Below are positions 2,740 through 20,588 of a stretch of 22,664 nucleotides of DNA, piece after piece (position 1 is the stretch's first letter; each line of letters starts with the position of its first letter). The notes under the pieces are model-generated. The model was not told where the DNA came from. It made no database searches and worked only from the letters and a program-made list of their open reading frames with translations. This DNA comes from Candidatus Woesearchaeota archaeon (GTDB lineage Archaea > Nanobdellota > Nanobdellia > Pacearchaeales > GW2011-AR1): contig CAZJEO010000009.1 of NCBI GenBank assembly GCA_964545065.1, positions 1 through 22,664 on the forward strand. Direction: 5' to 3'. The translations under genes were made by a program, and so were the position numbers.

Positions 2740-2741
2740 AA

Positions 2742-2816: not shown

Positions 2817-2833
2817 ATAATATTTGTAAGAGA

Positions 2834-4450: not shown

Positions 4451-4470
4451 CAATTTTATTGCATTCTAAT

Positions 4471-6794: not shown

Positions 6795-9700
6795 TTAAGA
6801 ACCAAAATACTCTTCCACAAATTCCATTATTTCTATAGTTTCTTTAGCATGAGTTTTTCCAGATTTAGATTCATCTCCAGTATAATAAACACTTAAAACA
6901 CATTTCAGGTGATTGTTTGGAGCAGCAACAGGTAAATCTATTTTGTTATTACACTCATTATAATTTGTTATCTTTAATTTATTCAATGCAAGTTTCAATA
7001 TACTTGAAGCATCCCTTATTTGAACTCCTGCACATCTAAGCATCTCCTCTTCACTTACTACTTCTCCTTCACTACATTTATATTTATCTATTAGCTCTGC
7101 TCCAGACCAACCATATTGCATAATCCATCTTGGGTCATATTCTCCTCCAGGATAACCCAAATTACTCTGCCTTATTGCAATTGCAACTAATAATGCTTTA
7201 AATCTATTTACACTCCATCCATCAGGCAAATAATTCTCACTAGTATACTTTTCAAATAGATTAACACCATTAATATCCTTAAGTTTATCATACTTGTCAA
7301 GATATTCAATAAATTCATTCTCACCAACTTCAAGATCTGTACATTGATCAGCACATTGCTGGCACTGCCATTCTTCATCAACACATGTACAATCAACAAA
7401 TTCCCCTGGACACACAGATGTACATTTATGCGTTGTTGACTCCCCAGAAACACATCCTCCAGCTGTCTTTATTTTTTCCAATTCTTCTTTTATCACAATT
7501 CTTGCAATATCAGCATAAGCATTCCCCCTCAACAAAAACAAATAAGCCTTCTCATTATTAAAAAACACTTTGTCAAAAATCTTTTCTATCAACCTCAACT
7601 GTTCAGCCGGTTGTCCTTTCTTATCATTAATCTCCTTAACTTTTGAAGTAAATTCATCATCCTGAAGATAACCTTCCTTATCTATCAAAATATCCAAATA
7701 ATTTCCTGTGACATCTTCTAAAGCCTCTTCTGCAATTCCCTTGCCTTCAATTAAATCCCCTACACTTTCTGTATCAAGCCAACATCCAATATTCTCAGAA
7801 CCACAATAACCAACTTCAACCCATCTTGAATTCTCTGTCTCCACATAAGGATCACTTCCTTCCCCCGGATTCCTTGTAGCACATGTCCTCACAATTCCAT
7901 AATTATAAGCTCCTGGAGTAACAACATCTTGATCAAAAATTGTTCCAGAAACACAGCCATTTACTGTCTTAATATCTCCGTCTTTTATTTGACTCGCAAC
8001 AAATTCATCAGTAATATAGTCCACTGCAAATGAAGTTGAAACTTCCTTAAATCCGCACTCTTCTTGTCCATTAACATTTATGCATAATTGCCTATAACCA
8101 GCAGACTCAGTCAAATCTCTTGTTTCAGAAGCATATTCTCCAATGCCAATATAACCAGAGGCTATCATCAACGTCGAAGAAACATCCTGATAATATGAGC
8201 TTTCAGGAACTCCGCTAAGATAAACCTGATAATACGCTCCCTGATTTTCTCCAGCATAAATATGGTAAAACACCTTGTAATGTGAAATAGGTGGAACAGT
8301 CACAGTTGTAAAAGGAATTTCATCAAATCTTCCATGAAACTGTGCAGGTGAATTCGGTTCTGTTAGCGAGTCAAGCAAATCCCCTCCGCTAGGATAAACC
8401 GCTGAAATAGAATTCTTACATACTAAATCTATTCCTACTTGCTCCATTGACCTGGCATTAAAGGCCCTGTTTGAACTTGTTCCATAATAATTAGTAAAAT
8501 AATTCACAGACTCCTTTGCTGTATTCCATGCACTCACAACAGTCATATACTCTCCTCCGCCTCGAGCATTTTGTCCAAGCAACATTCCTATAGCCTTTGG
8601 TATTGTGATATCTACCAAAGGCAACGCCTGCCTCCAAAAAAACTCACACAGGTAAACACTATGAATCTCGTCACAAATTCCAACCATCTCACCTGTATCC
8701 AATGACTCCTGCAAACAATCCCTGTAAGAATTTTTTACAGAAAGCCAACCATCAATTCCCGCCTTAACTCCAGTAAGACAAACAGGAATTGCAATTCCTT
8801 CTCTTATATTCGGAAAACACAAAGCCAAACTTCCGATTATTCCTGATTGAACAACATCTCTCACAGGATATGCCCCTCCTAAATCACACCTACTTGAAGG
8901 ACAAACAACAGGATCACAAACATTAAATAAAAGATTACAATCCTTTGGAGACATGAAATCCTGGCATTCTATCCCTGGAACATCCACTGCTGGAGCCCCC
9001 ACCTTAATATTCCGTCCTAAAATATTGACAGTCCCTGAAATCCCTGATCCATATGCCCCCTGCGCCTGTTTAAGTGCATCTAAAGCATTACCCACTATCT
9101 TTGCTGATTCTATCTTACTCAGTCCAGAAATCTGGTTTTCAGGTGTTCCTGCTCTCCTATCAATCAAAGTGCAATCATCTTCTGAAATACTTTCCTGCAA
9201 CCCATTTTTCCCAACATTGCAAACCCAAAAACTTGCAACAGCCCCAGATTCGTCATATGCTCCTCTATTCCCTAAGATAGGTAATGTCTGCCTTATCGCA
9301 GCATACCAACCATTATCCAAATCAAAAGGAACAATTGCAGGCATCCCTTTGTAAGGATCCGTTTCATAATATTTAAGTTCAGGATACTTATACTTATTCT
9401 CATAAGATGATTTGTCATATCTTTGGAAATAAATATCTTTCAATCCAGATACATATTCCTCAGGTTCTTCAACAAAATTTCCATTCATATCATATATCAA
9501 AAAGTCACCATTAGCATTTGTTTTAATTGGGAGATTAGGTCCTACTTCATCATTTAAAACAAGTATATATGCTCCTTCTCGATACTGCATAACCTGAATA
9601 GGGGTATCTGGATCTAATCCCAAGCCTACATCCTTAATCTCTCCATAAGTTAATTCATCATAAGGAATTTTTTCAGTATCATCAGTCTCATAAGCTCTTA

Positions 9701-12455
9701 TCTTATCAAGAGGAATTCCTAATCCTCCTGCCCACTCCTTCATCACAGCATAATTACCAGCATTCGTCTTAACATCTAATAATACAGAATAAAGTCTTTT
9801 CTCAGCTACAATTGTCAAATTTTTACTTGTACCATCATCAATCGAAACACTTGTCCAAAATTCAATCTCCCTCATCTGCTCTTGCTTATAACTCCTATCT
9901 TCCCAGCCAGCCAAAATTTTTCTCATATCCTCCATATCAATATCTTCTCCCTCTCCACTAGGATCTGCAAAACTTTCCCCAAGATTATCATCTAAATAAT
10001 TTGTAACATGAATTGAATACTTCTCCATAAACTTATTTGTGTTAACAACACTTGTTCCAAAAATATCTGGTTCTGTAATTCCTTCTCCCAATTCTTTTAT
10101 CCTCTTATTTTGTTTCTCAATCAATTCTGCAAGCTTATCAACATCCTCCTCAATATCCTCAGATTTATCCAACAAGCATTTATCAACTGAAACAAGAGAG
10201 TTAGCGCTTGCGATGTCCGCGCATTTTTCATACCATCCTCCATCTCCCCTCATCACATAATTCCTTGCAATTCCTGCCCCTCCAGCATTCTCCAAAAGAT
10301 TCTTCAAAACCAAACCTGCTCCAGTTGCAAGACACGCCTTATTCAAGCTCTCAGTAACTATTCCCATTACATTGGAAATATTCTGCCATTTCCCTATCTG
10401 ATTTCCTAATAAGTCAATCTTTTCCCTAATCTTCTCAGGAGGCAATTCAAAATTCCTCTTCTCAATATTAATTTTAAATCCAAATTCTGTATCTGTTCCC
10501 ACATCATCAACTCCAGAAATAATAGAAACCCTCGCTACATTATTAAGGTATATTTCAGATAATGTGAAAACAAATCCATTAGAACTTTCTGAAATACTTT
10601 CTTCTAGATTTAAACTTTCACTCTCGCCATTAATAGTAATCTTAATCCTTGCTGAATCTTGTTCAAGAGAAACCAACTGCATTGTACTCTCCTCGCTAAT
10701 ATAAACTGGTTTGTTCTTCCTCAATTCATATGGCTCTAATCCTTCAGGGCTCTCAACAAGAACCGCTGCTCCATAATCCTTAAAGCCAGGTTCATAAATT
10801 CCCCTAAAAGCAATCTTCTTTGTCTGCCCATTAATAGTAATATAATTTATTGCTGATTCTTGATTTGAAAGTCCATAATCATTATCACAAAACTCATCCA
10901 GAATTTTTTCTGAATTAGGATACAAATTTTCAAACTCCCCGCACAACTCAACAACTGTCGCCTTTTGCTCAGTCCCCCAAGCAAGAAAAATCTTTCTGTA
11001 CAACGCCTCTTCGCCAAAACTCCCTGCACTTTTATCAACATAAGATTCTGAAGCAAAACTATCTTCGATCTTTTGATAATCTTCCATAGCATTTTCATAA
11101 TTTTCATTACCCCCTATAACATCGCTATTAATCGGTATTCCAAAACCATTCAAAACAATTTCACTTCCTCCAAATGTTCTTACAAGTCCTTCGCCATAAT
11201 CAATCCACATACGTTGTTCATCTTCTTCAGTATCTACAATTCCTCCCTCAAAATCTTCATCCAAGAGTTCCCCAACAATTGTATTATAATAACTCAATTC
11301 ACTATTGCTCAAACTCTCCCCCTCATCACTTGGCTTTGAAACAAGGAAAACAAACAAATCTTCAGATTTTCTTGGATCTTCTCTAGTTCCAACATGTGCA
11401 AGATAAATATATTTATTATTCTCTTCGTAAAGAAAGTTCCCGACTTCCTTCTCCATTTCCTCTTCGTCAATACTCAAATTCACACGTGGATTAAGCATTA
11501 AATCAAATCCGCTGATTTTTCCATCTTCATTACAATTTATAGATACCTCTTGTTTCAACCCTTCTTTCTCTATTTTAACAACTTCACATTTATTCTCCAG
11601 AAATTTCTCTCCCCTCACAACCTCAACAAGATTATTATTAATCTTTAACAACGCTCTTGAATCAGAATTATCTAAACTATTAAGTTTTAATTTAAAATTA
11701 GCCAGGCACTCAAATCCTGGAAAAGATATCTCCTTAGATTCCTCTTCCTTATTCAGAGAAACACTTGCAACACGTTTATTTTCAGAATAAATAGAAATTC
11801 TTGCACTATCCCCTTCAATATTCTCAGCTCTCAAATATCCTCTTCCATCCCAAAAACTATATCTATATTTATTCGCCTCCCATTCAGCATCATTAAGTTC
11901 AGGAAGGTAAAAATTCACATCACCAACACCAAATGCATTCTTAACATCATACCTTACCCTTGCTGTAAGATTCCCAGAAACAAAATCAGGCATTGCCGAA
12001 GCATTTGCTTGCTTTTTCAAAACAATCACGGTATAACCAATATTATTCAAAAAAGGACTATTCAAATTATCCTCAACACTCAACGCAGCACGCGCAGGGT
12101 GAAAAGCAATTCCCTCTACTTCTGGAGGAACTTCTTGTGAAAATTCTATTCCCTCAATTGCTTCAACATCTATTAAAGGATTAATTTGCGTTGCTCCAAG
12201 CTGACAAAAAACAGGAACATTTTGCTCTTCAAGCAAATCACTCCTCACAATCATAGGTGTGCATCCAAAAGGAGCAATCTGAATCAGAAAATCTGTGCCT
12301 TGTTCACACATTGAATCACCCGAAACTTCAACAGGACTACTCATAAATTGAGTATACTGAACATTTGAACGAGTATAAACGGCAGAAATAAAAGATAAAG
12401 TTAAAACTAAGAGCACAAAAACAATTCCGATTTTTAATGTATTATTTTCTCTCAT
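6795..12455 (-). CDS. Giant secreted protein (1886 aa), family unknown, with Cys-rich regions
   Basis: Uninterrupted 5.66-kb ORF with a Sec-type signal peptide (MRENNTLKIGIVFVLLVLTLSFISAVYT). It has several Cys clusters, for example CQDFMSPKDCNLLFNVCDPVVCPSSRCD and CTSVCPGEFVDCTCVDEEWQCQQCADQC. Its ATG overlaps the upstream stop as TAATG. Confidence 0.8.
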   Translation of the reverse strand: MRENNTLKIGIVFVLLVLTLSFISAVYTRSNVQYTQFMSSPVEVSGDSMCEQGTDFLIQIAPFGCTPMIVRSDLLEEQNVPVFCQLGATQINPLIDVEAIEGIEFSQEVPPEVEGIAFHPARAALSVEDNLNSPFLNNIGYTVIVLKKQANASAMPDFVSGNLTARVRYDVKNAFGVGDVNFYLPELNDAEWEANKYRYSFWDGRGYLRAENIEGDSARISIYSENKRVASVSLNKEEESKEISFPGFECLANFKLKLNSLDNSDSRALLKINNNLVEVVRGEKFLENKCEVVKIEKEGLKQEVSINCNEDGKISGFDLMLNPRVNLSIDEEEMEKEVGNFLYEENNKYIYLAHVGTREDPRKSEDLFVFLVSKPSDEGESLSNSELSYYNTIVGELLDEDFEGGIVDTEEDEQRMWIDYGEGLVRTFGGSEIVLNGFGIPINSDVIGGNENYENAMEDYQKIEDSFASESYVDKSAGSFGEEALYRKIFLAWGTEQKATVVELCGEFENLYPNSEKILDEFCDNDYGLSNQESAINYITINGQTKKIAFRGIYEPGFKDYGAAVLVESPEGLEPYELRKNKPVYISEESTMQLVSLEQDSARIKITINGESESLNLEESISESSNGFVFTLSEIYLNNVARVSIISGVDDVGTDTEFGFKINIEKRNFELPPEKIREKIDLLGNQIGKWQNISNVMGIVTESLNKACLATGAGLVLKNLLENAGGAGIARNYVMRGDGGWYEKCADIASANSLVSVDKCLLDKSEDIEEDVDKLAELIEKQNKRIKELGEGITEPDIFGTSVVNTNKFMEKYSIHVTNYLDDNLGESFADPSGEGEDIDMEDMRKILAGWEDRSYKQEQMREIEFWTSVSIDDGTSKNLTIVAEKRLYSVLLDVKTNAGNYAVMKEWAGGLGIPLDKIRAYETDDTEKIPYDELTYGEIKDVGLGLDPDTPIQVMQYREGAYILVLNDEVGPNLPIKTNANGDFLIYDMNGNFVEEPEEYVSGLKDIYFQRYDKSSYENKYKYPELKYYETDPYKGMPAIVPFDLDNGWYAAIRQTLPILGNRGAYDESGAVASFWVCNVGKNGLQESISEDDCTLIDRRAGTPENQISGLSKIESAKIVGNALDALKQAQGAYGSGISGTVNILGRNIKVGAPAVDVPGIECQDFMSPKDCNLLFNVCDPVVCPSSRCDLGGAYPVRDVVQSGIIGSLALCFPNIREGIAIPVCLTGVKAGIDGWLSVKNSYRDCLQESLDTGEMVGICDEIHSVYLCEFFWRQALPLVDITIPKAIGMLLGQNARGGGEYMTVVSAWNTAKESVNYFTNYYGTSSNRAFNARSMEQVGIDLVCKNSISAVYPSGGDLLDSLTEPNSPAQFHGRFDEIPFTTVTVPPISHYKVFYHIYAGENQGAYYQVYLSGVPESSYYQDVSSTLMIASGYIGIGEYASETRDLTESAGYRQLCINVNGQEECGFKEVSTSFAVDYITDEFVASQIKDGDIKTVNGCVSGTIFDQDVVTPGAYNYGIVRTCATRNPGEGSDPYVETENSRWVEVGYCGSENIGCWLDTESVGDLIEGKGIAEEALEDVTGNYLDILIDKEGYLQDDEFTSKVKEINDKKGQPAEQLRLIEKIFDKVFFNNEKAYLFLLRGNAYADIARIVIKEELEKIKTAGGCVSGESTTHKCTSVCPGEFVDCTCVDEEWQCQQCADQCTDLEVGENEFIEYLDKYDKLKDINGVNLFEKYTSENYLPDGWSVNRFKALLVAIAIRQSNLGYPGGEYDPRWIMQYGWSGAELIDKYKCSEGEVVSEEEMLRCAGVQIRDASSILKLALNKLKITNYNECNNKIDLPVAAPNNHLKCVLSVYYTGDESKSGKTHAKETIEIMEFVEEYFGS

Positions 12456-14308
12456 TAAAAACTAACCTCCAAGTTTTTACCCTCAAACAAAAGATGGTTA
12501 TTCTGAAGTTCCTCAAGAGTTTTCGGAATAGGCAAACTATCTGCATCTATTTCAATTCTTCCAACTCCTGCTAACTGCGATTCCAAAATATAATATTCCT
12601 GTTTTCCGCCTCCTGAAAGAACATTTGAAATAATTTGGTCAGGAATTTCAATATCAAAACATTCTGTCTCTTTCAAACCAAGCAAACCCTTTAAACCAGT
12701 TCCCATAACCTCAACACATTGCTCTGTCGTCGTTGATTCAAACTCCAGAGAAGAATCTTCATAAATATAAACCTGAATTTCATATCCTCCTTCTGCCAAC
12801 TCCACACTATTCTGCTCAGGATAAACAACAGTCTTTGTTCCTTTACCAAAAGTCTCGTCAGGGTCATCCGCCTGGGAAATAAAGTAAATTATTGCGTCAC
12901 CACCATAATCCACTCCATCAAGTTTCAAGTCCACATCAACTTCATAAAGCTTGTTCAAAATAACATCAACACTTCCCCCATTTATTGTAGAAACCTCATA
13001 TTTTGTCTCTTCATATCCTTCTGCTCTCGCAATCACCTCTCCATTCGCGCATTGCGGAAATTTCCCCTCTAACAAACCTCCAGAGCTAGTTCCAATATTA
13101 CATTTCTCCCCAAAACATTCATAAGAAATCTGTGCATCAACAGAATTCAAAGAAGTATCATATGTTCTTACCAAGATTTCAGTGTTCATATATTCACAAA
13201 GTTCCACCTCTATTTTTCCTGCCCCCACATCCAAAGCCTCTCGCGGGTTATTCCCTTGAATCACAACAGCCATTGGGAATTGAAATGTTTCACTTCCACT
13301 TGATACTTGAATTAAAACAGGATATTTTACATTGTAGACAAAATGATACGGAACATAACAAAATCCAAGGACTCCCAACCCTGGCTGATTTCCAACAGGA
13401 TTTGCCAATAATAAATTTCCTTCTGACGGAAGAACTTCAAAAGAACTCGGCCAATTCTGAGAATTAATAAAACGTACCTCTTCATTAACATTTAAATCCA
13501 CAACAAAATATTTATCTTCGCCAGAACCTCTTCCTGTTCGCATAGCAAAAGTGTTTATTTCAATTGCTTCTTCAAGTGAATCAAAAACTTCATCAGCATT
13601 CCAGATCTTTGGTGAGCAGGTAATCTCAACACCATCAACAGGAGCATACAATCTCAAAAAGTCAACAGCATATTCCTCCAAGAACAAATCTTTCTGCTCT
13701 TTAGAATAAATCTCTTTCGCAGAATCATATAATGCTCCAAGTTTTGATTTAACAGAAACTTTGTGGTTGCTGATAGCAGCATGGTCTTCCCCTTTCTGTA
13801 TATTCATTCTCATATCCACCTTAACATCAACAGCATTATCTCTTATGTTCACATCTGCCCTTGGTTCTCCAAATTCAATTTCAAATCCTTCATCGTAATA
13901 GCTTTCAAGATTACAATTTCTCGCTCTTTCTTCTATAAAATTCCTCATCTGCTCTTCCATTTCTTTTTTAGATACAACTTGTTCTTTCTCAATACCATTT
14001 CCTGAAACATAATACCAATAAGGAATCGGGTTTCCTAAAAAATTTAATTGTGATGAAAAAGGCATATGACTACTTCCGGGTTCAAAATCCGGCAACTCAA
14101 TATAACCGCCCTGACTTTCCAAAATGCTAATCCCAACTTCAATATCTTCTTCCAAGCAAACTAAAAAAGCATTATATGCTGGCTCAATATTAGCAGGAAG
14201 CCCACGGAAAATAATCCCTTCCCTAATCATAAAAAAGACAGCAATCCCCGCAACTAAAATTATTGCAATTATAATAAACAAGGTAACTTGTCCTCGCTTT
14301 GATTTCAT
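12455..14308 (-). CDS. Exported protein (617 aa) with a class III (prepilin-like) signal peptide
   Basis: From the ATG at 14308 the sequence begins MKSKRGQVTLFIIIAIILVAGIAVFFMI. This is a KRG/Q cleavage-type motif followed by a hydrophobic helix. The 38 codons upstream in the track ORF use codons that are otherwise rare here. Confidence 0.7.
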   Translation of the reverse strand: MKSKRGQVTLFIIIAIILVAGIAVFFMIREGIIFRGLPANIEPAYNAFLVCLEEDIEVGISILESQGGYIELPDFEPGSSHMPFSSQLNFLGNPIPYWYYVSGNGIEKEQVVSKKEMEEQMRNFIEERARNCNLESYYDEGFEIEFGEPRADVNIRDNAVDVKVDMRMNIQKGEDHAAISNHKVSVKSKLGALYDSAKEIYSKEQKDLFLEEYAVDFLRLYAPVDGVEITCSPKIWNADEVFDSLEEAIEINTFAMRTGRGSGEDKYFVVDLNVNEEVRFINSQNWPSSFEVLPSEGNLLLANPVGNQPGLGVLGFCYVPYHFVYNVKYPVLIQVSSGSETFQFPMAVVIQGNNPREALDVGAGKIEVELCEYMNTEILVRTYDTSLNSVDAQISYECFGEKCNIGTSSGGLLEGKFPQCANGEVIARAEGYEETKYEVSTINGGSVDVILNKLYEVDVDLKLDGVDYGGDAIIYFISQADDPDETFGKGTKTVVYPEQNSVELAEGGYEIQVYIYEDSSLEFESTTTEQCVEVMGTGLKGLLGLKETECFDIEIPDQIISNVLSGGGKQEYYILESQLAGVGRIEIDADSLPIPKTLEELQNNHLLFEGKNLEVSF

Positions 14309-14418
14309 TAAGGTAGGCGAACTCTGCACTTTTGGGGTGGACGAGCGATTTCGCGAGACTTTCTGTAGCCCCTGATTTCGAGCGAGGTCGCGAGTTGGGA
14401 GGGCACAATCTCTACTTC
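14309..14418 (-). promoter_or_regulatory. GC-rich spacer with two CGAGCGAnnTCGCGAG repeats (candidate operator, leader or ncRNA)
   Basis: Hand count gives 46 G+C in the 80 nt at 14331-14410, against a much more AT-rich background. The repeats are at 14342-14357 (cgagcgatttcgcgag) and 14379-14394 (cgagcgaggtcgcgag). Confidence 0.45.
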
Positions 14419-14553
14419 TCATTCTTTCTTCACCTCCAAACCAAGTTTTTTTCTTATCAAATCTAAAATTTCTGTATTAATATCTTTGTTAATAATCTCT
14501 TTAAACTTACTCCAAAGTTTCTCATCCTCTATAAGAAGCAAATACTTTTTCAT
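14419..14553 (-). CDS. Small 44-aa protein, possible ribbon-helix-helix regulator (paralog 1)
   Basis: Not in the ORF track. My translation is MKKYLLLIEDEKLWSKFKEIINKDINTEILDLIRKKLGLEVKKE. A TATA box (atttatatat on the minus strand) lies about 29-38 nt upstream. A paralog is present at 17394-17522. Confidence 0.6.
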   Translation of the reverse strand: MKKYLLLIEDEKLWSKFKEIINKDINTEILDLIRKKLGLEVKKE

Positions 14554-14701
14554 ACAACCTCAGCATCATAAGAAAATTTCAATATATAAATGTTTCTTAA
14601 TAAATAAGTTAGTTACTTAGTAAGTTAGTAAGTAAAATAAAAAAGGGTATAAATCTTATTGAGAAAAAAACTAACTAAATACTTACTGAATTAGTTTCTT
14701 A

Positions 14702-15319
14702 TTATTTTCCTCCAAATAAAAAACGATAACCTCCAGTTAGAGTAATCATACCTCTTACATTTTCACTTGCTGGTAATACTGTATAACTAAGTCTTCCATG
14801 AACTCCATCGAATATAGTTGCACCTATGCCAAATTCTAATCCAAATGTTGAATTTGATACTTCCTCATGAACATCAAATTCTGGGATATCTATTGTTGAA
14901 AATTCACCTAATACATTTACACCAGCCATTAAATATGGTTTTACTTTTGCTGTTGGTTTTAATGGACTAAAACTTGCATTAACCCTTGGTAAGATACTCT
15001 TTGTTTCTATGTATTCTCCAGATGAATGAAAATAATCTAAACCAGCTTCAAGTCCGACTTTTCCTATATTAATACCATAAGCCCCACCAATTAGAAAAGA
15101 AGGATCATAGACTTGTTCTTCTGCTACTACTGGAACTATTACTCCAAGTTTTGGTTCAACATAATGCTTTAAGGATGCACAGGCAACAGTAGTAGCTAAA
15201 AAAGTAACCAAAGTTGCACCTGCAATTACCTTTTCAACTCCATGTTTAAATCTCTGGAAAAATGCTGTTTCTTCGTTAATCTTTGATTCTAGTTTTGATT
15301 TAGTTTCTTTTTGTTTCAT
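14702..15319 (-). CDS. OMP-like 8-stranded beta-barrel protein with an N-terminal signal/anchor
   Basis: 205 aa with a TM/signal segment VIAGATLVTFLATTVACA. This is followed by about 8 amphipathic strands with alternating hydrophobic residues and Gly/aromatic girdles, and the protein ends GGYRFLFGGK. It resembles the bacterial OmpX/OmpW/OMP_b-brl type. Confidence 0.55.
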   Translation of the reverse strand: MKQKETKSKLESKINEETAFFQRFKHGVEKVIAGATLVTFLATTVACASLKHYVEPKLGVIVPVVAEEQVYDPSFLIGGAYGINIGKVGLEAGLDYFHSSGEYIETKSILPRVNASFSPLKPTAKVKPYLMAGVNVLGEFSTIDIPEFDVHEEVSNSTFGLEFGIGATIFDGVHGRLSYTVLPASENVRGMITLTGGYRFLFGGK

Positions 15320-15427: not shown

Positions 15428-17263
15428 TTAAACATAGTAACATCTTCCAAGATTACATATCTCTACCTTACATCTTCCTTCAGTACATCCACCTGGGCAT
15501 ACTTCTATTAATTTAGGAGCAGTTGAAACTGAGCAATATGAATCACATTCATATGTTTTATAGTCTTGCCAAACATCATTACTTTGACAAAAAGGATTTC
15601 CTATATAGCCATCAGTTCCACAACCTAAATCAGAAAAACATTCTATACCTAGAGCTGCTAAAATGTCTATCCTTGGAAAGCTCAAACCATTATCAGGATC
15701 AACAATTGGAATTCCAGTATCCTTCAACCTATCGCTTATTTCATCAGGTGTTAATGATGGTGAAGCTTGTTTTAACAAAGCTATAACACCAGCAACATGA
15801 GGTGTTGCCATAGATGTTCCTGATTTGAATCCATAATTGCCATTAAGTACTGTAGAAAAAATACCCCCACCAGGAGCGAGAACATCAAGCAAACTACCTG
15901 TATTAGTAAAATAAGATATAACATCTGCTTTTGTTGTTGAGCCGACTGAAATTGCATTTGGTGAGCAAGCCGGATATGAAATACCATTAGAATGCCCTTC
16001 ATTACCAGATGCAACTGTTACTGCTATCCCTAAATCATGTGCTGTATCAATAACTTCATCCATCCAAATTGGACATGTTTTTTCATTATATTTTCCTTCG
16101 CCAATACTCATTGTTATTGCTACAATATTATACTCACTACTCTTATTATTACACCAATCAACACCTGCAATCATCGCAGATCCTGAACATCCCTCAGAGC
16201 TCGAACATACTTTCAATGCGAATAATTTAGCATCAGGAGCGACTCCTCTTAGAACACCATTTGCAGCAACGATTCCTGTGACATGTGTTCCATGTCCATG
16301 GTCATCCATAGGGTCAGCATCATTATTAACAAAATCCCACCCCCCAGCAACCTTACAACCCTCACCAAAACAACCTCCCAAATCTCCATGAGTATAATCA
16401 ATTCCTGTATCAAGAACACAAACAAAAGTTCCATTACCAGTCATACCTAAATCCCATACCTTATCTGCATTTATTAACGGAACAGATCCAAAAAGGGTTA
16501 TATTTAATATTAGATCTTCATAAATTGCTTTTACATTTGGGTCTTGTTCTAATTCATCTAAACCTTCTTGTGTAATTTTTCCTGCAAATCCGCTAATAGT
16601 ATTATATCTATATTTAAGATGGAATTCATCTGGATCAAGCTTTAATAATGCCTTATCTTGTTTTGTCTTTACTATTGATTTTATTCCTAATAAACTATTA
16701 TCAGCTATTCTAAGAGTTTCATCGTCTTTTAACATAACAATTATATCTATGAAATCTTCATTCTCATTATTAATCATACTTTTTTTGTCATCAGAACTTT
16801 GAGAATTACTATCATCTACATCAGCTTCGTTATCTGTAGAATCAGAATTATCTGGAGGATTAGTTTCTGAATCTTCACTTTCATCACTAACCGAATCTGT
16901 TTCTTCATTATTTGAATCAGTAGTAGAATCTTCAGGATTATCTAAACCATCTAATTCACTTAAATCAGACTCTTGTGAATTTGAATCTGCATCAGAATTT
17001 GAATTACTTCGTGAGGAGCTTCCACCACCCCCCAAAAAAAGAATATTCTCAGGGTCGTCGTCATCTTCAATATAATTCCCATTTAAATTAAAATTTGACA
17101 AAGGCATTTCATTGTTAATGCCAGATTGTTCTATAACTGACTTTTCTTGTTTAGAATTCTCAAAGTTATGCATGATTACTGAATTAGATAATATTATTAA
17201 ACCTAAAAAAACAACTAAAATAGAAATAATTAAAATAGACATAGCAATATTTCTTTTCTCCAT
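15428..17263 (-). CDS. Membrane-anchored subtilisin-like serine protease (peptidase S8) with an I9-like propeptide and a C-terminal Cys-rich module
   Basis: The catalytic triad contexts are VCVLDTGIDYTHGDL (D), HGHGTHVTGIVAANG (H) and SGTSMATPHVAGVIALL (S). There is an N-terminal anchor IAMSILIISILVVFLGLIIL. A long Ser/Asp/Asn/Glu linker follows it. Confidence 0.9.
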   Translation of the reverse strand: MEKRNIAMSILIISILVVFLGLIILSNSVIMHNFENSKQEKSVIEQSGINNEMPLSNFNLNGNYIEDDDDPENILFLGGGGSSSRSNSNSDADSNSQESDLSELDGLDNPEDSTTDSNNEETDSVSDESEDSETNPPDNSDSTDNEADVDDSNSQSSDDKKSMINNENEDFIDIIVMLKDDETLRIADNSLLGIKSIVKTKQDKALLKLDPDEFHLKYRYNTISGFAGKITQEGLDELEQDPNVKAIYEDLILNITLFGSVPLINADKVWDLGMTGNGTFVCVLDTGIDYTHGDLGGCFGEGCKVAGGWDFVNNDADPMDDHGHGTHVTGIVAANGVLRGVAPDAKLFALKVCSSSEGCSGSAMIAGVDWCNNKSSEYNIVAITMSIGEGKYNEKTCPIWMDEVIDTAHDLGIAVTVASGNEGHSNGISYPACSPNAISVGSTTKADVISYFTNTGSLLDVLAPGGGIFSTVLNGNYGFKSGTSMATPHVAGVIALLKQASPSLTPDEISDRLKDTGIPIVDPDNGLSFPRIDILAALGIECFSDLGCGTDGYIGNPFCQSNDVWQDYKTYECDSYCSVSTAPKLIEVCPGGCTEGRCKVEICNLGRCYYV

Positions 17264-17548: not shown

Positions 17549-19930
17549 TTACACAGTAATAAAAATAGAATTTTCGTTATTATTTTCATCTGTTTCAGAA
17601 ACAATATTATCTTGGTCCACTATTACTTTTGGGAAATAAGTTCCCGGATGGAGATAAACAATTTTCATAAATGCTCTTGTCCATTCTCCAGTATCAAGAT
17701 TTATAGGAGAAGTCCTTTTTGGATTTTCATCATCTGAATCAGTATCAATCATCCAATAAACTTCGTCTGCAGGAACTTCTCCAATGTTCTTGATTGTAAA
17801 TGAAACAAAAACTTCTTTATCTCTTATAAGATAATTCTTAAAATCTGTTACAGTTAAATCTGGCATTAAATATGGTTGATCTAAACATTCTGCATTTTCA
17901 CAACCATAAAGACAATCTTCTCTCGGTTGATTAGCATCTTGTTTTTCACAATATGAACTTATCGTACCAGGATTATGACAAATATATTGCGTATATGTCT
18001 GCCAAACATCTCCCAAAAAACAATCTCTATCGTCTGCCCATCCATCTGCCCCGCATTCTGCATTTGAAGAACAGTTTATTATAGAAGGTTCTTCTACACA
18101 TTCTCCATTTGAACAAATTTCTCCACTAGGACAAACATCACAATCCAAAGTTCCCCCACAACCATCATCCTGAGTTCCACATTCATACCCCAATGAAGCA
18201 CAAGTCTCAGCAACACAAACACCGATACAAGCTCCATCAGAACAAATATTTCCTCCAGGACAAGTATATCTCAAATAAACTACTCTTTCATCCAGACTAC
18301 AAAAAAATTCCCTCAACACAGAACCTCCCTCTTCAACACAGGAATCTGTAAAAACCCCATTAGGTCCACGAGCAGTCCCCTTCACATAATATACCAGCCC
18401 ACCATCAGAATCAGTACAAGTAATAGATGGCTGGCATTTCCCTCCAACACAATTCAAAGAACCACATTCTTCTCTTTTACTTTCTCGAACATTACAAGAA
18501 TCATACCAATAAACATCTCCTCCATAACATTTTGAAGAATCATGCGAACTACAAGATGAAACACAATTCCCATTTCCATCACACTCCACGTTTATCCCAC
18601 ATGAAACTCCCTCAGCATAATTCCTACAACTCCCCAAGATAGTTCCAGTACAAACCTCAGTACGTATATATTTACAAATTCCACAAGAATATTTTAATTG
18701 GTCATTAGACTGGCTACTACAATCAGCGGTATTAGAATCTTTACAATTACCAAAAGCTTCACATCTATTTGAAGTTATATCTTTTTTATTATAACAATAT
18801 TCTGTTGAAGTTGGACGTTGTGTTCCTGTTTGAATATACCATCTACTACAATCTATTGTTTCGCAAGAAGTATCATCCCCTGAAGTTAAACAACTTCCCT
18901 TTGAGTTACATTCCCCACATAATGCACAAGAAGTACCTAATGATTCAAATTCATATGGCCTACTTGAAGTATCACAGCAAGAACCAGAAAAACATTCGCA
19001 ATCAGATTCTTTATAAACATCATATTCAGAGGTGGAATATTCAAGATTATGGGTATAATCACTTGTCAATTTAACTAAAGCATAAATTTCAATTTTTCCT
19101 GTATCATGGGGACTAACAAATTGAGAACTCAAATCAATATTTTCAAAAACATATGAATAATCAACATGCAAATCATCACAATCAATAGAAATATAAGAAG
19201 TTTTTGATGCTATTAAATCATCTTTCAAATAATCAGATTCCATGATTTCTAATTCCATGTCTGCCCTAAAAGAATCCGCAAAAAGACAGGCAACACGCCC
19301 ATTATAATTAAGAGAAGGATATAAATCTCCAAGAACCCTCATATCTATCTCTTCATTTCCGCTACTGCCAACACAAACACTAGAAAGTAATGGTGGAGAA
19401 AAACGTATCCTATCAGGATCCACAATAATCATAATCTGCATATTAGAATCGCTACTCTTAACTTCAAATGAAGCTTCTGCACTATCATCTAAACCAGTCG
19501 TATCAACCACAGAACTAATCTCTAAATTTTCATTCTCCTCCACCACAACATCCCTAGAATCAGAATTTTCAGAACTACTACTCGCTCTTGAAGAACTAGA
19601 ACTACTTTTTCTAGAACTTCTTGAACTACTAGATTTGGTATTCAAAGAATTTATTCTTAGAATCTCCTCAACGTTATTGTCATTTTCTGTATTTAAAAAA
19701 TCTAAATCAGCTTGTTCTTTCTTATCCAGTAAAACAAGTTCTGCTCTTGGTTTCTTCCATATCTTAAACAAGTTCCTAAAAAAATCAAATAAATTAAAAC
19801 GTTCAGGATTAGAATTTAAAGTAATAACATCTGAATTTTGATTTAAATTAATAACCTCTTCTGCTAAAATTGGCAAGATTGACAATATCAAAACCATTAC
19901 AAAAAACAAACACAAAAATTTAGTTTTCAT
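17549..19930 (-). CDS. Secreted Cys-rich mosaic protein (793 aa) with a C-terminal CARDB-like domain
   Basis: It has a signal peptide (MKTKFLCLFFVMVLILSILPILAEE) and a poly-Ser linker. Multiple Cys-rich modules follow. The C-terminus reads PDLTVTDF...FTIKNIGEVPA...VDQDNIVSETDENNN, which matches the CARDB pattern. Confidence 0.8.
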   Translation of the reverse strand: MKTKFLCLFFVMVLILSILPILAEEVINLNQNSDVITLNSNPERFNLFDFFRNLFKIWKKPRAELVLLDKKEQADLDFLNTENDNNVEEILRINSLNTKSSSSRSSRKSSSSSSRASSSSENSDSRDVVVEENENLEISSVVDTTGLDDSAEASFEVKSSDSNMQIMIIVDPDRIRFSPPLLSSVCVGSSGNEEIDMRVLGDLYPSLNYNGRVACLFADSFRADMELEIMESDYLKDDLIASKTSYISIDCDDLHVDYSYVFENIDLSSQFVSPHDTGKIEIYALVKLTSDYTHNLEYSTSEYDVYKESDCECFSGSCCDTSSRPYEFESLGTSCALCGECNSKGSCLTSGDDTSCETIDCSRWYIQTGTQRPTSTEYCYNKKDITSNRCEAFGNCKDSNTADCSSQSNDQLKYSCGICKYIRTEVCTGTILGSCRNYAEGVSCGINVECDGNGNCVSSCSSHDSSKCYGGDVYWYDSCNVRESKREECGSLNCVGGKCQPSITCTDSDGGLVYYVKGTARGPNGVFTDSCVEEGGSVLREFFCSLDERVVYLRYTCPGGNICSDGACIGVCVAETCASLGYECGTQDDGCGGTLDCDVCPSGEICSNGECVEEPSIINCSSNAECGADGWADDRDCFLGDVWQTYTQYICHNPGTISSYCEKQDANQPREDCLYGCENAECLDQPYLMPDLTVTDFKNYLIRDKEVFVSFTIKNIGEVPADEVYWMIDTDSDDENPKRTSPINLDTGEWTRAFMKIVYLHPGTYFPKVIVDQDNIVSETDENNNENSIFITV

Positions 19931-20546
19931 TTTGAGTCAAAAATGTTTCAAGCCTACTTTTAATCTCTTCTTCTGGAAACCCATATAAAAATAAATTAGG
20001 AAATCCATATTCATTCAAAATAGATTGTGCACGAATTGTTTTTTCCCGATCATCTTCTGGTCCGACATAGTTGATTACAAAATCTCTAAGTCCCCTCCCC
20101 CAATAATCAAAAATAAAATCATCTTCTGCTCCAAAAGAAAACCGAACATCCCCTCTAAAAGATTTGTCAACAAGACTCTCCCCCTTCTCTAAAAACTGAT
20201 AACCTCTCCCAGCAAAAACCCCCTCCATAATTTCTCTAGCTTCTTCTTCATTAGGAGAATAAAAAGAATCTTCTGAAGGGGTTTTATCTTCTCCCCATTG
20301 ATTATAAGCCGTCGCCTCAATAGAATTAACTCCCTCCACGATAGGAATAAAAACTTCCTCACCTTCAAACTTCCTACCATTAGCATCAACGCGGACACCA
20401 TCAGAATTAATTGTAGTAAAAAGATATCTAACATTTCCATTATTATAAAAATTCCTTGCTACACCAATTATATCAGGTTGACAAGATAAAAAGACAGTGG
20501 CTAAGGAAAACAAAACTAAACGTCTCAATCCAGAGTAATAACTCAT
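19920..20546 (-). CDS. Putative lipoprotein (208 aa), possibly Tat-exported, function unknown
   Basis: From the ATG at 20546 the sequence begins MSYYSGLRRLVLFSLATVFLSCQPD, with an RR motif and an LSC lipobox-like site. The track start at 20564 is a TTG. A TATA box (ctttataatt on the minus strand) lies about 26 nt upstream. Its 3' end overlaps the next gene's start by 11 nt. Confidence 0.65.
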   Translation of the reverse strand: MSYYSGLRRLVLFSLATVFLSCQPDIIGVARNFYNNGNVRYLFTTINSDGVRVDANGRKFEGEEVFIPIVEGVNSIEATAYNQWGEDKTPSEDSFYSPNEEEAREIMEGVFAGRGYQFLEKGESLVDKSFRGDVRFSFGAEDDFIFDYWGRGLRDFVINYVGPEDDREKTIRAQSILNEYGFPNLFLYGFPEEEIKSRLETFLTQNEN

Positions 20547-20588
20547 AAAATTTAGAAGTGTCAATTAATTATAAAGATTTCTATACTT

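What the first reader, a model, noticed from the sequence alone, without database searches (positions are those of the whole stretch)
14702..15319. Bacterial-OMP-like 8-strand beta-barrel protein encoded in an archaeal genome
After a signal/anchor segment the 205-aa product has about 8 amphipathic segments:
- FLIGGAYGINIG
- VGLEAGLDYFH
- ILPRVNASFSP
- KPYLMAGVNVLGEF
- TFGLEFGIGATIF
- HGRLSYTVLP
- MITLTGGYRFLF

It ends in an aromatic-rich terminal strand, GGYRFLF(GGK). This is the hallmark of small outer-membrane barrels such as OmpX and OmpW.

Nearly all archaea lack an outer membrane and the BAM machinery. A protein like this could be a horizontal acquisition, a self-inserting pore aimed at another cell's membrane, or a soluble lipocalin-like barrel. 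It sits directly downstream of the secreted protease.
Basis: partly seen in the sequence, partly recalled or inferred. Interest (0 to 1): 0.65.

Follow-up and report, generated by a model that had tools for sequence, protein, structure and literature searches.

The report
Bacterial-type membrane barrel in DPANN archaeon
A small archaeon of the Woesearchaeota group carries a conserved gene for a bacterial-style eight-stranded membrane barrel, a kind of protein I found no report of in archaea, and it is almost always paired with a secreted enzyme that carries one particular cysteine-rich tail, so it probably anchors that enzyme to the cell surface.

Summary
Window 14702-15319 (-) is a 205-aa ORF with a signal peptide, a lipobox Cys47 and an eight-stranded beta-barrel. 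The AlphaFold2 barrel has pLDDT above 90. All top Foldseek hits are bacterial OmpA, OmpW, OprF, Ail, NspA and OmpX. The Pfam PF13505 match is E=2.4e-5, just under the curated cut-off.

The contig is truly archaeal (TFIIB, eS8, S3Ae, L44e). The gene belongs to a small family of 58 close homologues, and all three named genomes that carry it are Candidatus Woesearchaeota MAGs.

One face of every strand is hydrophobic and variable (0.8% polar). The other face is polar or Gly-rich and conserved. That is the signature of a lipid-embedded barrel, not a lipocalin.

The nearest outgroup, probably myxobacterial, keeps a C-terminal Phe in 21 of 22 members. The archaeal clade keeps it in 5 of 34.

The new finding concerns the neighbour. 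In 16 of 20 distinct loci the gene immediately upstream ends in the same undescribed Cys-rich C-terminal domain (…GRCKVEVC…CYYV or …YCVWQ), whatever enzyme it carries. Here that enzyme is the S8 protease.

My best reading is a horizontally acquired barrel that docks these tagged exoproteins. Which membrane holds it is unknown, and that is the interesting part.

The parts
14702..15319 (-). Gene for the 205-aa OMP-like beta-barrel lipoprotein (the finding)
   Evidence: ORF. PF13505 E=2.4e-5. 58 homologues. AF2 model. Foldseek hits to OmpA, OmpW, OprF, Ail, NspA and OmpX.
15179..15319 (-). Signal peptide (aa 1-46) plus lipobox Cys47 (TVAC). The n-region MKQKETKSKLES is the family-wide MKQKLESI motif, here with a 17-aa insertion.
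   Evidence: Alignment A1. A lipobox is present in 36 of 54 full-length members, with a fixed 6-residue Cys-to-Tyr53 spacing. The same signal peptide occurs on unrelated neighbouring lipoproteins.
14714..15169 (-). Eight-stranded barrel domain (aa 51-202). It carries a conserved polar crown (DYFHSSGEYIET, STIDIPEFDVHE, PASENVRG) and a beta-signal-like TGGYRFLF.
   Evidence: DSSP strands 51-65, 74-85, 88-100, 104-117, 126-145, 150-169, 173-181 and 188-202. Dyad hydrophobicity and conservation analysis.
15428..17263 (-). Upstream partner ('cargo'): a secreted S8 subtilase with an I9 propeptide
   Evidence: PF00082 E=7.8e-54 and PF05922 E=2.8e-7. It lies 108 nt upstream of the barrel gene on the same strand.
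15431..15652 (-). Cys-rich C-terminal domain (CTD) of the S8 protease, ending …GGCTEGRCKVEICNLGRCYYV*
   Evidence: Local jackhmmer domain E=8.1e-33. The tail is shared by the upstream genes of 16 of 20 distinct loci. No Pfam or PDB match.
17549..19930 (-). 793-aa Cys-rich secreted protein with a C-terminal CARDB domain and one internal CTD-like domain (about nt 17867-18103). Its orthologues in other loci carry the CTD tail and directly precede the barrel.
   Evidence: PF07705 E=1.4e-9. tblastn synteny. CTD hit at E=2.4e-16.
19920..20564 (-). 214-aa ORF with a lipobox-like signal (MSYYSGLRRLVLFSLATVFLSC). It overlaps the start of the 793-aa gene by 11 nt and looks like the first gene of the same unit.
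   Evidence: No Pfam or NCBIfam hit.
12455..14308 (-). Conserved downstream neighbour: a 617-aa protein with a class III (type IV pilin-like) signal, MKSKRGQVTLFIIIAIIL. The listed ORF start at 14422 is probably too far upstream.
   Evidence: 57-60% identity to the 608-aa proteins of L010 and L013, with alignments starting at M39. Present downstream of the barrel in about half of the loci.
6795..12455 (-). Conserved 1886-aa Cys-rich giant surface protein. Its start overlaps the stop of the pilin-like gene.
   Evidence: 44% identity over about 1460 aa to the L013 giant. Synteny in 10 or more loci. No Pfam or PDB hit.

Best explanation
The gene encodes a horizontally acquired member of the bacterial small-OMP (OmpA/OmpX/OmpW-like, Pfam OMP_b-brl) superfamily that has become fixed in Woesearchaeota-type DPANN archaea.

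Proposed steps, each marked as shown or inferred:
1. Export (inferred). The protein leaves the cell through Sec using a lineage-specific signal peptide. In about two thirds of members it is lipidated at a lipobox Cys that sits four residues before strand 1. The other members have a signal-peptidase-I-like site instead.
2. Fold (shown by prediction). The mature ~150 residues form a closed eight-stranded antiparallel barrel. The interior is a conserved polar and Gly network, so there is no channel. The exterior is a roughly 25 Å hydrophobic belt with aromatic girdles.
3. Placement (inferred). The barrel sits in a lipid layer outside the cytoplasm. The termini and the variable turns lie on one side. 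An unusually conserved polar crown lies on the other.
4. Function (inferred from gene coupling). The barrel acts as the membrane dock for the protein encoded immediately upstream. It recognises that protein through a conserved ~70-90 aa Cys-rich C-terminal domain and tail. In this window the docked cargo is the S8 protease.

This makes the pair a split, two-gene version of the passenger-plus-barrel proteins seen in the bacterial relatives. Assembly is presumably BAM-independent, because the strict C-terminal Phe of the bacterial relatives has been lost.
For: Fold and homology:
- PF13505 at E=2.4e-5 covers nearly the whole profile, and most homologues carry a precomputed PF13505 hit.
- The AF2 model has eight strands with pLDDT above 90.
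- The top 50 Foldseek PDB hits are all bacterial OM barrels, led by OmpA at 2.8e-8, followed by OmpW, OprF-N, Ail, NspA, OmpX and PagL.

Membrane character:
- The 47 outward positions have mean KD +2.39, 0.8% polar or charged residues, 21% aromatic residues and entropy 1.55 bits.
- The 45 inward positions have mean KD -0.90, 31% polar residues, 23% Gly and entropy 0.85 bits.
- Members without the lipobox Cys keep the barrel unchanged.

Archaeal residence:
- The window carries TFIIB, eS8, S3Ae and L44e.
- All three GTDB genome hits are Candidatus Woesearchaeota MAGs.
- Synteny with S3Ae and L44e holds in independent assemblies.
- GC content equals that of the window.

Bacterial origin:
- hhalign of the family against 22 high-GC lipobox barrels gives probability 99.8% and E=6.5e-29.
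- Some of those carry MYXO-CTERM tags above the NCBIfam cut-off.
- 17 of 40 distant hits match PF13505, the best at 1.3e-18.
- 21 of 22 bacterial-like relatives end in Phe, against 5 of 34 archaeal members.

Docking of the CTD:
- In 16 of 20 distinct loci the same-strand ORF immediately upstream (gap -23 to +123 nt) ends in the CTD tail. Its N-terminal part may be S8, Polysacc_deac_1, Vgb_lyase, PPC or CARDB-type.
- Two further loci have the CTD protein one or two genes away.
- Every CTD hit in about 372 kb of loci lies upstream of a barrel on the same strand.
- Distant relatives fuse caspase, CARDB or BACON domains to the N-terminus of the barrel.

Lipoprotein pathway: predicted lipoproteins and AliA are prevalent in DPANN (PMC12462473).
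Against: - No coordinates were available, so the in/out assignment rests on dyad periodicity and conservation rather than on measured surface exposure.
- The window protein itself scores 25.0 bits against PF13505, below the 28.7-bit gathering cut-off.
- No physical evidence links the barrel and the CTD. No obvious covariation was seen between tail type and barrel sequence. The CTD model was unusable at pLDDT 46. Co-folding could not be run.
- No membrane suited to a bacterial-type barrel is known in Woesearchaeota, whose cell envelope has not been described in the literature I searched. The papers I read report double membranes in a few archaeal lineages only.
- No insertase is identified.
- Two loci, L015 and L028, have the barrel without a CTD neighbour.
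- The taxonomy of the 'bacterial' outgroup is inferred from sorting tags and composition, not read from genomes.
Confidence: 0.5

Rival explanations
1. It is a weapon or attachment device for the host membrane. The barrel is released, or presented at the contact site, and inserts spontaneously into the membrane of the host cell on which the DPANN archaeon lives. This would resemble Bdellovibrio PopA, which is delivered into prey membranes. There it would tether or deliver the CTD-tagged hydrolases.
For: [quoted passage not shown]
- A predator OMP that enters prey inner membranes is documented (PMC12228718).
- 13 of 54 members have a non-lipobox, signal-peptidase-like site and so could be released.
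- The upstream cargoes are hydrolases: protease, deacetylase and lyase.
- Small eight-stranded OMPs fold into bilayers unaided in vitro (my own knowledge of the OmpA, OmpX and PagP folding literature).
Against: - Two thirds of members have a lipobox Cys only four residues before strand 1. That would hold the barrel on the producer's own membrane.
- The interior is filled with conserved polar and Gly residues, so the barrel cannot form a pore by itself.
- On insertion from outside, the most conserved loops would end up on the far (host cytoplasmic) side.
- No relatives were found on viral or mobile contigs.
- The gene sits in a conserved chromosomal position next to ribosomal protein genes.
Confidence: 0.15
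2. It is a genuine outer-membrane protein. On this reading these Woesearchaeota are diderm, and the barrel is a resident, perhaps major, protein of a second lipid membrane. It would be lipid-anchored in the inner leaflet like its bacterial relatives, with the crown exposed on the cell surface. This is a specific version of the best explanation. It is listed separately because it makes a much stronger claim.
For: - The topology matches that of the bacterial relatives: lipobox, short linker, barrel, with the termini and the lipid on the same side.
- There is a hydrophobic belt with aromatic girdles.
- Double membranes have been reported for several archaea that interact closely with other cells: Ignicoccus, ARMAN, SM1/Altiarchaeum and Methanomassiliicoccus (PMC4243693; PMC8871954).
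- With the lipid anchor at the termini end, insertion into the cytoplasmic membrane would force the conserved acidic crown back across that membrane.
Against: - No ultrastructure is available for Woesearchaeota.
- Only one barrel family was seen. No Omp85/BamA, Lpt or Lol genes appear in the roughly 372 kb of flanking DNA inspected, though that is not whole genomes.
- The family is small: 69 clusters at 50% identity among 1.84 billion representatives.
Confidence: 0.2
3. It is a soluble or peripherally anchored eight-stranded barrel of the lipocalin, YceI or avidin type. It would bind a hydrophobic ligand, for example host lipids that DPANN cannot make, and would be tethered only by its lipid anchor.
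For: - DPANN archaea have reduced genomes and limited metabolic pathways and depend on their hosts (abstracts listed). A lipid-scavenging role is my own extrapolation from that.
- The protein is an eight-stranded barrel with a lipid anchor, like the bacterial lipocalin Blc (my own knowledge).
- The polar motifs at one barrel end are highly conserved and could form a binding site.
Against: - None of the top 50 Foldseek hits is a soluble barrel.
- The hydrophobic face is the variable one and the polar/Gly face is the conserved one. This is the reverse of a barrel with a hydrophobic core.
- The sequence is homologous to OMP_b-brl.
- 23% Gly on the conserved face fits a tight, filled OmpA-like interior.
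Confidence: 0.05
4. It is an artefact: a chimeric contig or bacterial contamination, so that the barrel gene is really bacterial.
For: The fold is otherwise bacterial, and the window comes from an uncultured source.
Against: - The same gene order (S3Ae, L44e, Cys-rich protein, barrel, pilin-like gene, giant gene, TFIIB) recurs in more than 10 independent assemblies from JGI, ENA, NCBI and Logan.
- The genome hits are Woesearchaeota MAGs.
- One homologue lies on a 652-kb contig and others lie beside form-III-like RuBisCO, TYW3 and Gins51 genes.
- GC content is identical to the flanks.
Confidence: 0.01

Closest known systems
Small eight-stranded bacterial outer-membrane barrels: the OmpA N-terminal domain, OmpX/Ail, OmpW, NspA, OprF-N and PagL (Pfam clan MBB, family PF13505 OMP_b-brl)
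   Same: - Same fold: Foldseek E of 3e-8 to 1e-5 and target-normalised TM-score up to 0.69.
- Sequence similarity to PF13505.
- Sec signal, dyad hydrophobic belt, aromatic girdles, polar filled interior and a GYRF-type last strand.
   Different: - It is encoded in archaeal genomes.
- The conservation pattern is inverted. The loops opposite the termini are short and nearly invariant, while the turns on the termini side vary and carry indels.
- The C-terminal Phe is no longer terminal.
- The lipobox sits four residues before strand 1.
- There is an obligate CTD-bearing upstream neighbour.
- The window protein scores below the Pfam gathering cut-off, with no hit to the OmpA_membrane, OmpX or OmpW models.
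Uncharacterised high-GC lipoprotein barrels, some fused behind caspase, CARDB or BACON domains and MYXO-CTERM tags (P0086-P0127). They are probably from Myxococcota-like bacteria.
   Same: - Homologous across the whole barrel: hhalign 99.8%, 143 columns, 29% identity.
- They share a lipobox, the R.G..P start of strand 1, the E.G.D motif and the GSENV.G…GY.F ending.
- They are associated with a surface-protein 'passenger'.
   Different: - The passenger is fused rather than encoded by a separate upstream gene.
- They lack the archaeal STIDIPEF crown insertion.
- They end exactly at Phe.
- The linker between the Cys and the barrel is long.
- Their taxonomy is inferred, not known.
Type V autotransporters and the T9SS CTD/PorV system (passenger or tagged cargo plus an outer-membrane barrel)
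   Same: The logic is the same. Diverse secreted enzymes, including subtilases and CARDB-type proteins, share one C-terminal domain and are genetically or physically tied to a beta-barrel that holds them at the surface.
   Different: - There is no sequence or fold relationship to those systems' components.
- This barrel has 8 strands and a filled interior, against 12 to 16 strands in autotransporters and 14 in PorV, so it cannot translocate a polypeptide.
- The CTD is Cys-rich with no Pfam or PDB match, unlike the Ig-like T9SS CTD.
- No PorU-like sortase was found. A weak hit at 21937-22440 (E=0.0087) is not significant.
Bdellovibrio PopA and the BT1926-type eight-strand oligomeric OMPs (PMC12228718)
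   Same: - PopA is a precedent for a barrel protein deployed in a cell-cell predatory or episymbiotic setting.
- The BT1926 family consists of closed eight-stranded barrels without a plug.
- That paper notes a possible distant PopA relative in Altiarchaeales.
   Different: - No homology to PopA was tested or implied.
- The oligomeric state of this family is unknown.
- PopA is a larger porin-like pentamer.
Ihomp1/Imp1227 of the Ignicoccus outer membrane, the only archaeal outer-membrane protein I know of (my own knowledge)
   Same: It would likewise be a protein of an archaeal outer lipid layer in a symbiosis-prone archaeon.
   Different: Ihomp1 is a small alpha-helical oligomer, not a beta-barrel, and is not related to bacterial OMPs.

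Membership tests
Pfam PF13505 OMP_b-brl (clan MBB) | Sequence score at or above the curated gathering threshold of the family HMM | tested here: inconclusive
   The window protein scores 25.0 bits (E=2.4e-5), below the 28.7-bit cut-off, although it covers profile positions 22-175 of 175. Most of the 58 close homologues carry a precomputed PF13505 hit. 17 of 40 distant relatives match, the best at 1.3e-18. The family as a whole belongs to the superfamily. This one sequence is borderline.
Pfam PF13505 OMP_b-brl (clan MBB) | Closed antiparallel eight-stranded beta-barrel fold | tested here: met
   The AF2 model has eight strands with pLDDT above 90 in the barrel. Foldseek probability is 1.00 to OmpA, OmpW, OprF-N, Ail, NspA and OmpX. 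Barrel closure was not inspected directly because no coordinates were available.
Pfam PF13505 OMP_b-brl (clan MBB) | Lipid-facing hydrophobic belt with aromatic girdles, and a polar interior | tested here: met
   Outward face: mean KD +2.39, 0.8% polar, 21% aromatic. Inward face: mean KD -0.90, 31% polar, 23% Gly and more conserved. The faces were assigned from periodicity and conservation.
Pfam PF13505 OMP_b-brl (clan MBB) | C-terminal beta-signal ending in a terminal aromatic residue | tested here: not met
   The motif TxGGYRFxF is present, but only 5 of 34 archaeal members end in Phe and most are extended by GGKK. By contrast, 21 of 22 bacterial-like relatives end in Phe.
Pfam PF13505 OMP_b-brl (clan MBB) | Residence in a bacterial-type outer membrane and BAM-dependent assembly | not testable with these tools
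   The host is an uncultured archaeon and whole genomes could not be scanned for Omp85/BamA. The envelope architecture of Woesearchaeota is not described in the papers found.
OmpA_membrane (PF01389), OmpX/Ail and OmpW families specifically | A match to the specific family HMM | tested here: not met
   Only PF13505 was reported for the window protein at E<=0.01. There was no PDB sequence match at E<=1 with the family profile. The similarity to these families is at fold level only.
Prokaryotic lipoprotein (lipobox) | A signal peptide ending in [LVI][ASTVI][GAS]C, or the looser PROSITE PS51257-type pattern | tested here: met
   The window has ATTVAC, which fits the looser pattern but not the strict -3 Leu rule. 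36 of 54 full-length members match, and 13 lack the Cys. Actual lipidation is not testable here. AliA-type machinery is reported in DPANN (PMC12462473).
Lipocalin, YceI or avidin-type soluble eight-strand barrels | A hydrophobic ligand-binding core with a polar, variable exterior, plus fold matches to soluble barrels | tested here: not met
   No soluble barrel appears in the top 50 fold hits. The conserved face is the polar/Gly one and the variable face is the hydrophobic one.
Type V autotransporter or T9SS CTD cargo system | A 12-16-strand translocator barrel or PorV/PorU components, and an Ig-like CTD | tested here: not met
   The barrel has eight strands. The CTD has no Pfam or PDB match. 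Autotransporter barrels align only poorly, with TM-score below 0.3.

The most novel reading that the evidence does not exclude
Woesearchaeota-type DPANN archaea have a second, outer lipid layer, or use their host's membrane, that houses a bacterial-derived eight-stranded beta-barrel assembled without BAM. This barrel is the receptor of a previously undescribed protein-sorting system. In that system, diverse exoenzymes are addressed to the cell surface by a Cys-rich C-terminal tag (…GRCKVEVC…CYEYCVWQ). It would be the first transmembrane beta-barrel and the first barrel-based surface-display system in Archaea.
Probability: 0.2. Interest if true: 0.9.

Novelty: new variant of a known kind. Interest (0 to 1): 0.72.

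Why it matters
Transmembrane beta-barrels are treated as a hallmark of diderm bacteria and their organelle descendants. Their assembly is thought to need Omp85/BAM. I found no report of a characterised archaeal one. A conserved, vertically maintained OmpA-like barrel family in DPANN archaea raises three concrete, testable questions.
- Which lipid layer holds it? This bears on whether some DPANN are diderm and on how they contact their hosts.
- How does a barrel fold into an archaeal ether-lipid membrane without BAM? The loss of the terminal Phe hints that the constraint was relaxed.
- Is the Cys-rich C-terminal tail a new sorting or anchoring tag?

The last point gives a handle on how these episymbionts display proteases and polysaccharide-active enzymes at the interface with other cells. 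It also gives annotators a rule: a CTD-tailed gene followed by a barrel gene marks surface-displayed cargo in Woesearchaeota.

Tried and rejected
- Profile search of the barrel family against PDB sequences found nothing at E<=1. Only the fold search was informative.
- NCBIfam found no family for the barrel.
- The viral-contig scan found no relatives, so a viral or mobile origin is not supported.
- Searching the 5.8-billion-protein database with the alignment of distant hits (A2) returned only 2 proteins, because long multidomain members swamped the candidate list.
- Searching that database with the CTD profile (A3) returned nothing at E<=1e-3. The domain is too short for that database size, so the genome-wide number of CTD-tagged proteins remains unknown.
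The two-sequence window-only alignment gave pLDDT 46, which is unusable.
- I looked for covariation between CTD tail type (…CYYV versus …YCVWQ) and barrel sequence and saw nothing obvious. The test is in any case confounded by phylogeny.
- Cluster look-up of distant relatives gave no organism names, only short metagenomic contigs.
- Seven literature searches for a described archaeal, DPANN or Woesearchaeal OMP-like barrel found none.
- Conserved pairing with the S8 catalytic domain is rejected. Only the window and L006/L025 have an S8 upstream.
- The first apparent paralogue, the L001 322-aa protein (E=2e-9 to the family HMM), matches only through the shared signal peptide and has no barrel.
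Full report
**1. The observation**

Every quoted peptide segment is present.

The window is unambiguously archaeal.
- It encodes TFIIB at 5466-6383 (PF00382, 2.8e-48) and ribosomal protein eS8 at 4459-4824.
- It encodes S3Ae at 21294-21821 and L44e at 20875-21186.
- It also carries a dimeric archaeal/eukaryal-type GlyRS, RNase Z and four tRNAs.

GC content is low and uniform. The target gene is 0.330 against 0.339 for the whole window, with similar values for the neighbours. Composition therefore gives no sign of a foreign segment.

**2. What the protein is**

Pfam gives a single hit, PF13505 OMP_b-brl. It scores E=2.4e-5 and 25.0 bits, just under the 28.7-bit gathering cut-off, and spans profile positions 22-175 of 175. 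NCBIfam and a PDB sequence search give nothing.

The 5.8-billion-protein search returned 58 homologues. They are 48-84% identical and 172-217 aa long, and most carry a precomputed PF13505 hit.

With a 34-sequence alignment (A1), AlphaFold2 gives mean pLDDT 82.6, and above 90 throughout the barrel. The model has an N-terminal helix at residues 3-44, which is the signal peptide. Eight long strands follow at 51-65, 74-85, 88-100, 104-117, 126-145, 150-169, 173-181 and 188-202.

Foldseek against the PDB returns only bacterial outer-membrane barrels in the top 50.

| Hit | Foldseek result |
|---|---|
| OmpA TM domain | E=2.8e-8 |
| OmpW | E=1.3e-6 |
| OprF N-domain | E=1.8e-6; TM-score 0.69 normalised to the target |
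| Ail, NspA, OmpX, PagL | E=3.9e-6 to 9.2e-4 |

No lipocalin, avidin or other soluble barrel appears.

**3. Is it membrane-embedded?**

All eight strands show strict two-residue periodicity.

| Face | Positions | Mean Kyte-Doolittle | D/E/K/R/N/Q/H | Other composition | Entropy |
|---|---|---|---|---|---|
| Outward | 47 | +2.39 | 0.8% | 21% aromatic | 1.55 bits |
| Inward | 45 | -0.90 | 31% | 23% Gly | 0.85 bits |

A conserved polar and Gly interior with a variable hydrophobic exterior is what small OmpA/OmpX-type barrels show. It is the reverse of a soluble barrel with a hydrophobic core.

The hydrophobic run is 5-6 outward residues per strand. That is about 25 Å at the usual strand tilt, which is my own estimate. 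It is bounded by Tyr and Phe positions (Y81, Y96, F159 and Y179 on one side; H/F52, F/Y117, Y198, F200 and F202 on the other).

The interior carries conserved charges: E55, K57, E91, D95, R112, K127, E139, E162, R176 and R199. These fit a filled, non-conducting barrel.

**4. The N-terminus**

Most members start MKQKLESI-KKGK-(hydrophobic)-LAIGC-AS. A PROSITE-type lipobox is present in 36 of 54 full-length members, and the Cys always lies six residues before the invariant Tyr53.

Thirteen members have no Cys. They carry …PL(T/K)LS(S/A)Q-SLKHY instead, which looks like a signal-peptidase-I site. The window protein has TVAC (Cys47) and a 17-residue insertion in the n-region.

The same signal peptide, almost residue for residue, heads two unrelated adjacent proteins in locus L001. 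It is therefore a lineage-specific lipoprotein leader and not part of the barrel family.

Predicted lipoproteins and the candidate lipidation enzyme AliA are reported to be prevalent in DPANN (PMC12462473). Lipidation here is inferred, not shown.

**5. Who has it**

All three hits among the GTDB species genomes are Candidatus Woesearchaeota MAGs. Homologues sit on long DPANN-like contigs. One contig is 652 kb. Others lie beside RuBisCO, TYW3, Gins51 and S3Ae genes.

An exhaustive HMM search of 1.84 billion cluster representatives found only 69 hits at E<=1e-3 and 19 at E<=1e-30. The family is therefore small and narrow. No relatives were found on viral contigs.

Weaker hits (E of 1e-10 to 1e-4) are Ala/Arg/Pro-rich proteins.
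- They have a lipobox and then the barrel at the extreme C-terminus.
- Several are fused behind caspase, CARDB or BACON domains.
- Two carry MYXO-CTERM sorting domains above the NCBIfam cut-offs.

A profile-profile comparison of the archaeal family with 22 of these gives probability 99.8% and E=6.5e-29 over 143 columns. Their organisms could not be read directly. A myxobacterial origin is inferred from the sorting tag and the composition.

Twenty-one of those 22 end in a C-terminal Phe (…GYxF-COOH), the classical OMP signature. Only 5 of 34 archaeal members do, and most are extended by GGKK. The simplest history is a single old bacteria-to-archaea transfer, followed by relaxation of a constraint tied to BAM recognition. 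That last link is an inference.

**6. Genomic context**

I gathered 40 loci, about 372 kb including redundancy, and compared them with the window by tblastn and a local jackhmmer.

*A lineage-specific arrangement.* The window and about half of the informative loci share this order.

| Position | Gene | Conservation |
|---|---|---|
| Opposite strand | S3Ae and L44e | present in the shared order |
| 1 | CARDB-type Cys-rich protein | present in the shared order |
| 2 | Barrel | the family itself |
| Gap | 85-490 nt | variable |
| 3 | ~610-aa protein with a class III (pilin-like) signal, KRGQ(V/I)T(L/I)FII | 57-67% identical |
| 4 | Giant protein of 1400-2270 aa | 39-48% identical |
| After 4 | TFIIB | at least in the window and L037 |

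This rules out a chimeric contig.

*A far more general pairing.* The same-strand ORF immediately upstream of the barrel (gap -23 to +123 nt, sometimes overlapping) ends in a conserved Cys-rich C-terminal domain of about 70-90 aa. The tail reads …GC(T/I)xGRCK(V/I)E(V)C…CN(F/Y)GxCY(E)YC(V)WQ* or …CNYGKCYYV*.

This holds whatever the N-terminal part of that ORF is.
- S8 protease: the window, and L006/L025 at 68% identity.
- Polysaccharide deacetylase: L008. In L001 two lipoprotein genes intervene.
- Vgb-lyase-like giant: L003.
- PPC-domain protein: L013.
- CARDB-type proteins: L010, L032, L034 and L037.

Of 20 distinct loci with upstream sequence, 16 have the tail directly adjacent. Two have it one or two genes away. 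Two lack it: L015, which holds a distant homologue, and L028.

Every CTD hit in all the loci lies upstream of a barrel on the same strand. The CTD has no Pfam match at E<=1 and no PDB match.

In the window the S8 protease (15428-17263) ends …GGCTEGRCKVEICNLGRCYYV*. The S8 domain itself is not the conserved element.

**7. How it most likely works**

The mechanism is set out step by step under 'best explanation', with each step marked as shown or inferred. In short:
- Shown by prediction and homology: an OmpA/OmpX-type eight-stranded barrel with a membrane-like exterior, preceded by a Sec and lipobox leader.
- Inferred from tight, domain-specific gene coupling, and from the fused architectures of the bacterial relatives: the barrel is the membrane dock for the CTD-tagged protein encoded upstream. 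Together they form a split passenger-plus-anchor pair.

The conservation pattern fits this reading. In bacterial OMPs the loops opposite the termini are long and variable. Here they are short and nearly invariant (DYFHSSGEYIxT, STIDIPEFxVHD, PxSENVKGM). The turns on the termini side carry the indels. This suggests that the crown contacts a conserved self partner rather than the environment.

What I cannot say is which lipid layer holds the barrel.
- With the lipid anchor at the termini end, the geometry copies that of a bacterial OM lipoprotein barrel. That points to a second, outer lipid layer.
- Insertion into the archaeon's own cytoplasmic membrane would require the acidic crown to cross back over that membrane.
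- Insertion into a host membrane is conceivable for the members without a lipobox.

Double membranes are reported for some archaea: Ignicoccus, ARMAN, SM1 and Methanomassiliicoccus (PMC4243693; PMC8871954). I found nothing on Woesearchaeota envelopes.

**8. Comparison with known systems, and novelty**

At superfamily level this is an OMP_b-brl/MBB barrel. It is not a member of the OmpA_membrane, OmpX or OmpW families. It also fails one defining trait of bacterial OMPs, the terminal aromatic residue.

Functionally it resembles autotransporters and the T9SS CTD/PorV logic, but it shares no components with them.

Bdellovibrio PopA is a precedent for a barrel used against another cell's membrane. 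That paper also notes a possible distant PopA relative in Altiarchaeales (PMC12228718).

None of the seven literature searches found a description of this family, of any transmembrane beta-barrel in DPANN, or of the CTD. I rate it a new variant of a known kind. The fold is known. The domain of life, the conservation logic and the partner tag are new.

**9. Caveats**

- The in/out assignment is sequence-based.
- The barrel-CTD interaction is inferred from synteny only.
- The CTD structure could not be modelled, and its genome-wide abundance could not be measured.
- The taxonomy of the outgroup is indirect.
- Whole genomes could not be checked for BAM, Lol or Lpt genes.

Noticed in passing
L001:7919-8908, L001:9030-9998 and L001:10001-10603; also window 15179-15319: A nearly identical lipoprotein signal peptide (MKQKLESIxKKGKxxALAGLASLAIGC) heads three consecutive, mutually unrelated genes in L001, as well as the whole barrel family. 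This looks like a lineage-specific, unusually conserved lipoprotein leader in Woesearchaeota, and even the n-region is conserved. A related 331-aa lipoprotein sits in the same position in L033.
   Followed up: partly
window 12455-14308 (-) and 6795-12455 (-): A conserved two-gene unit lies downstream of the barrel. The first gene encodes a ~610-aa protein with a class III, type IV-pilin-like signal (MKSKRGQVTLFIIIAIIL). The second encodes a giant Cys-rich protein of 1400-2270 aa whose start overlaps the first gene's stop. Neither has a Pfam or PDB match. The pair recurs in 10 or more loci at 57-67% and 39-48% identity. It may be a host-attachment or envelope structure. The mechanical ORF start at 14422 is probably 38 codons too far upstream.
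   Followed up: partly
P0098, P0103, P0109, P0127 (distant relatives, not in the window): In the high-GC bacterial-like relatives, a MYXO-CTERM or GC_trans_RRR sorting domain is normally the extreme C-terminus of a protein. Here it is internal. It is followed in the same ORF by a second lipobox and the eight-strand barrel, after caspase or CARDB domains. This architecture is odd and, as far as I know, undescribed.
   Followed up: partly
window 15428-17263 (-), residues ~60-170: The S8 protease has a long acidic, low-complexity Asp/Ser/Asn/Glu-rich spacer between its signal anchor and the I9 propeptide. The 793-aa neighbour (17549-19930) has a similar Ser-rich spacer (…SSSSRSSRKSSSSSSRASSSS…). 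These may be glycosylated stalks.
   Followed up: no
window 19920-20564 (-): This 214-aa ORF has a lipobox-like signal (…LATVFLSC) and overlaps the start of the 793-aa gene by 11 nt. It has no family hit and no tblastn match in any of the other loci, so it appears specific to this genome.
   Followed up: partly
window 14309-14701: The non-coding gap between the barrel gene and the pilin-like gene is about 390 nt, which is long. Other loci have 85-490 nt here, and L010-L012 have a called 45-aa ORF. There is no Rfam hit. It is presumably the promoter region of the downstream unit, but it was not examined.
   Followed up: no
window 2667-2817 (-): tRNA-Cys(GCA) and tRNA-Arg(TCT) are separated by a single base and lie next to RNase Z (3200-4093).
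   Followed up: no
window 21937-22440 (-): This 167-aa ORF has only insignificant hits: the PorU2 N-terminal region at E=0.0087 and the MG2 domain at E=0.0011, both far below the cut-offs. I mention it only because a T9SS-like sortase would have been relevant. The evidence does not support one.
   Followed up: partly
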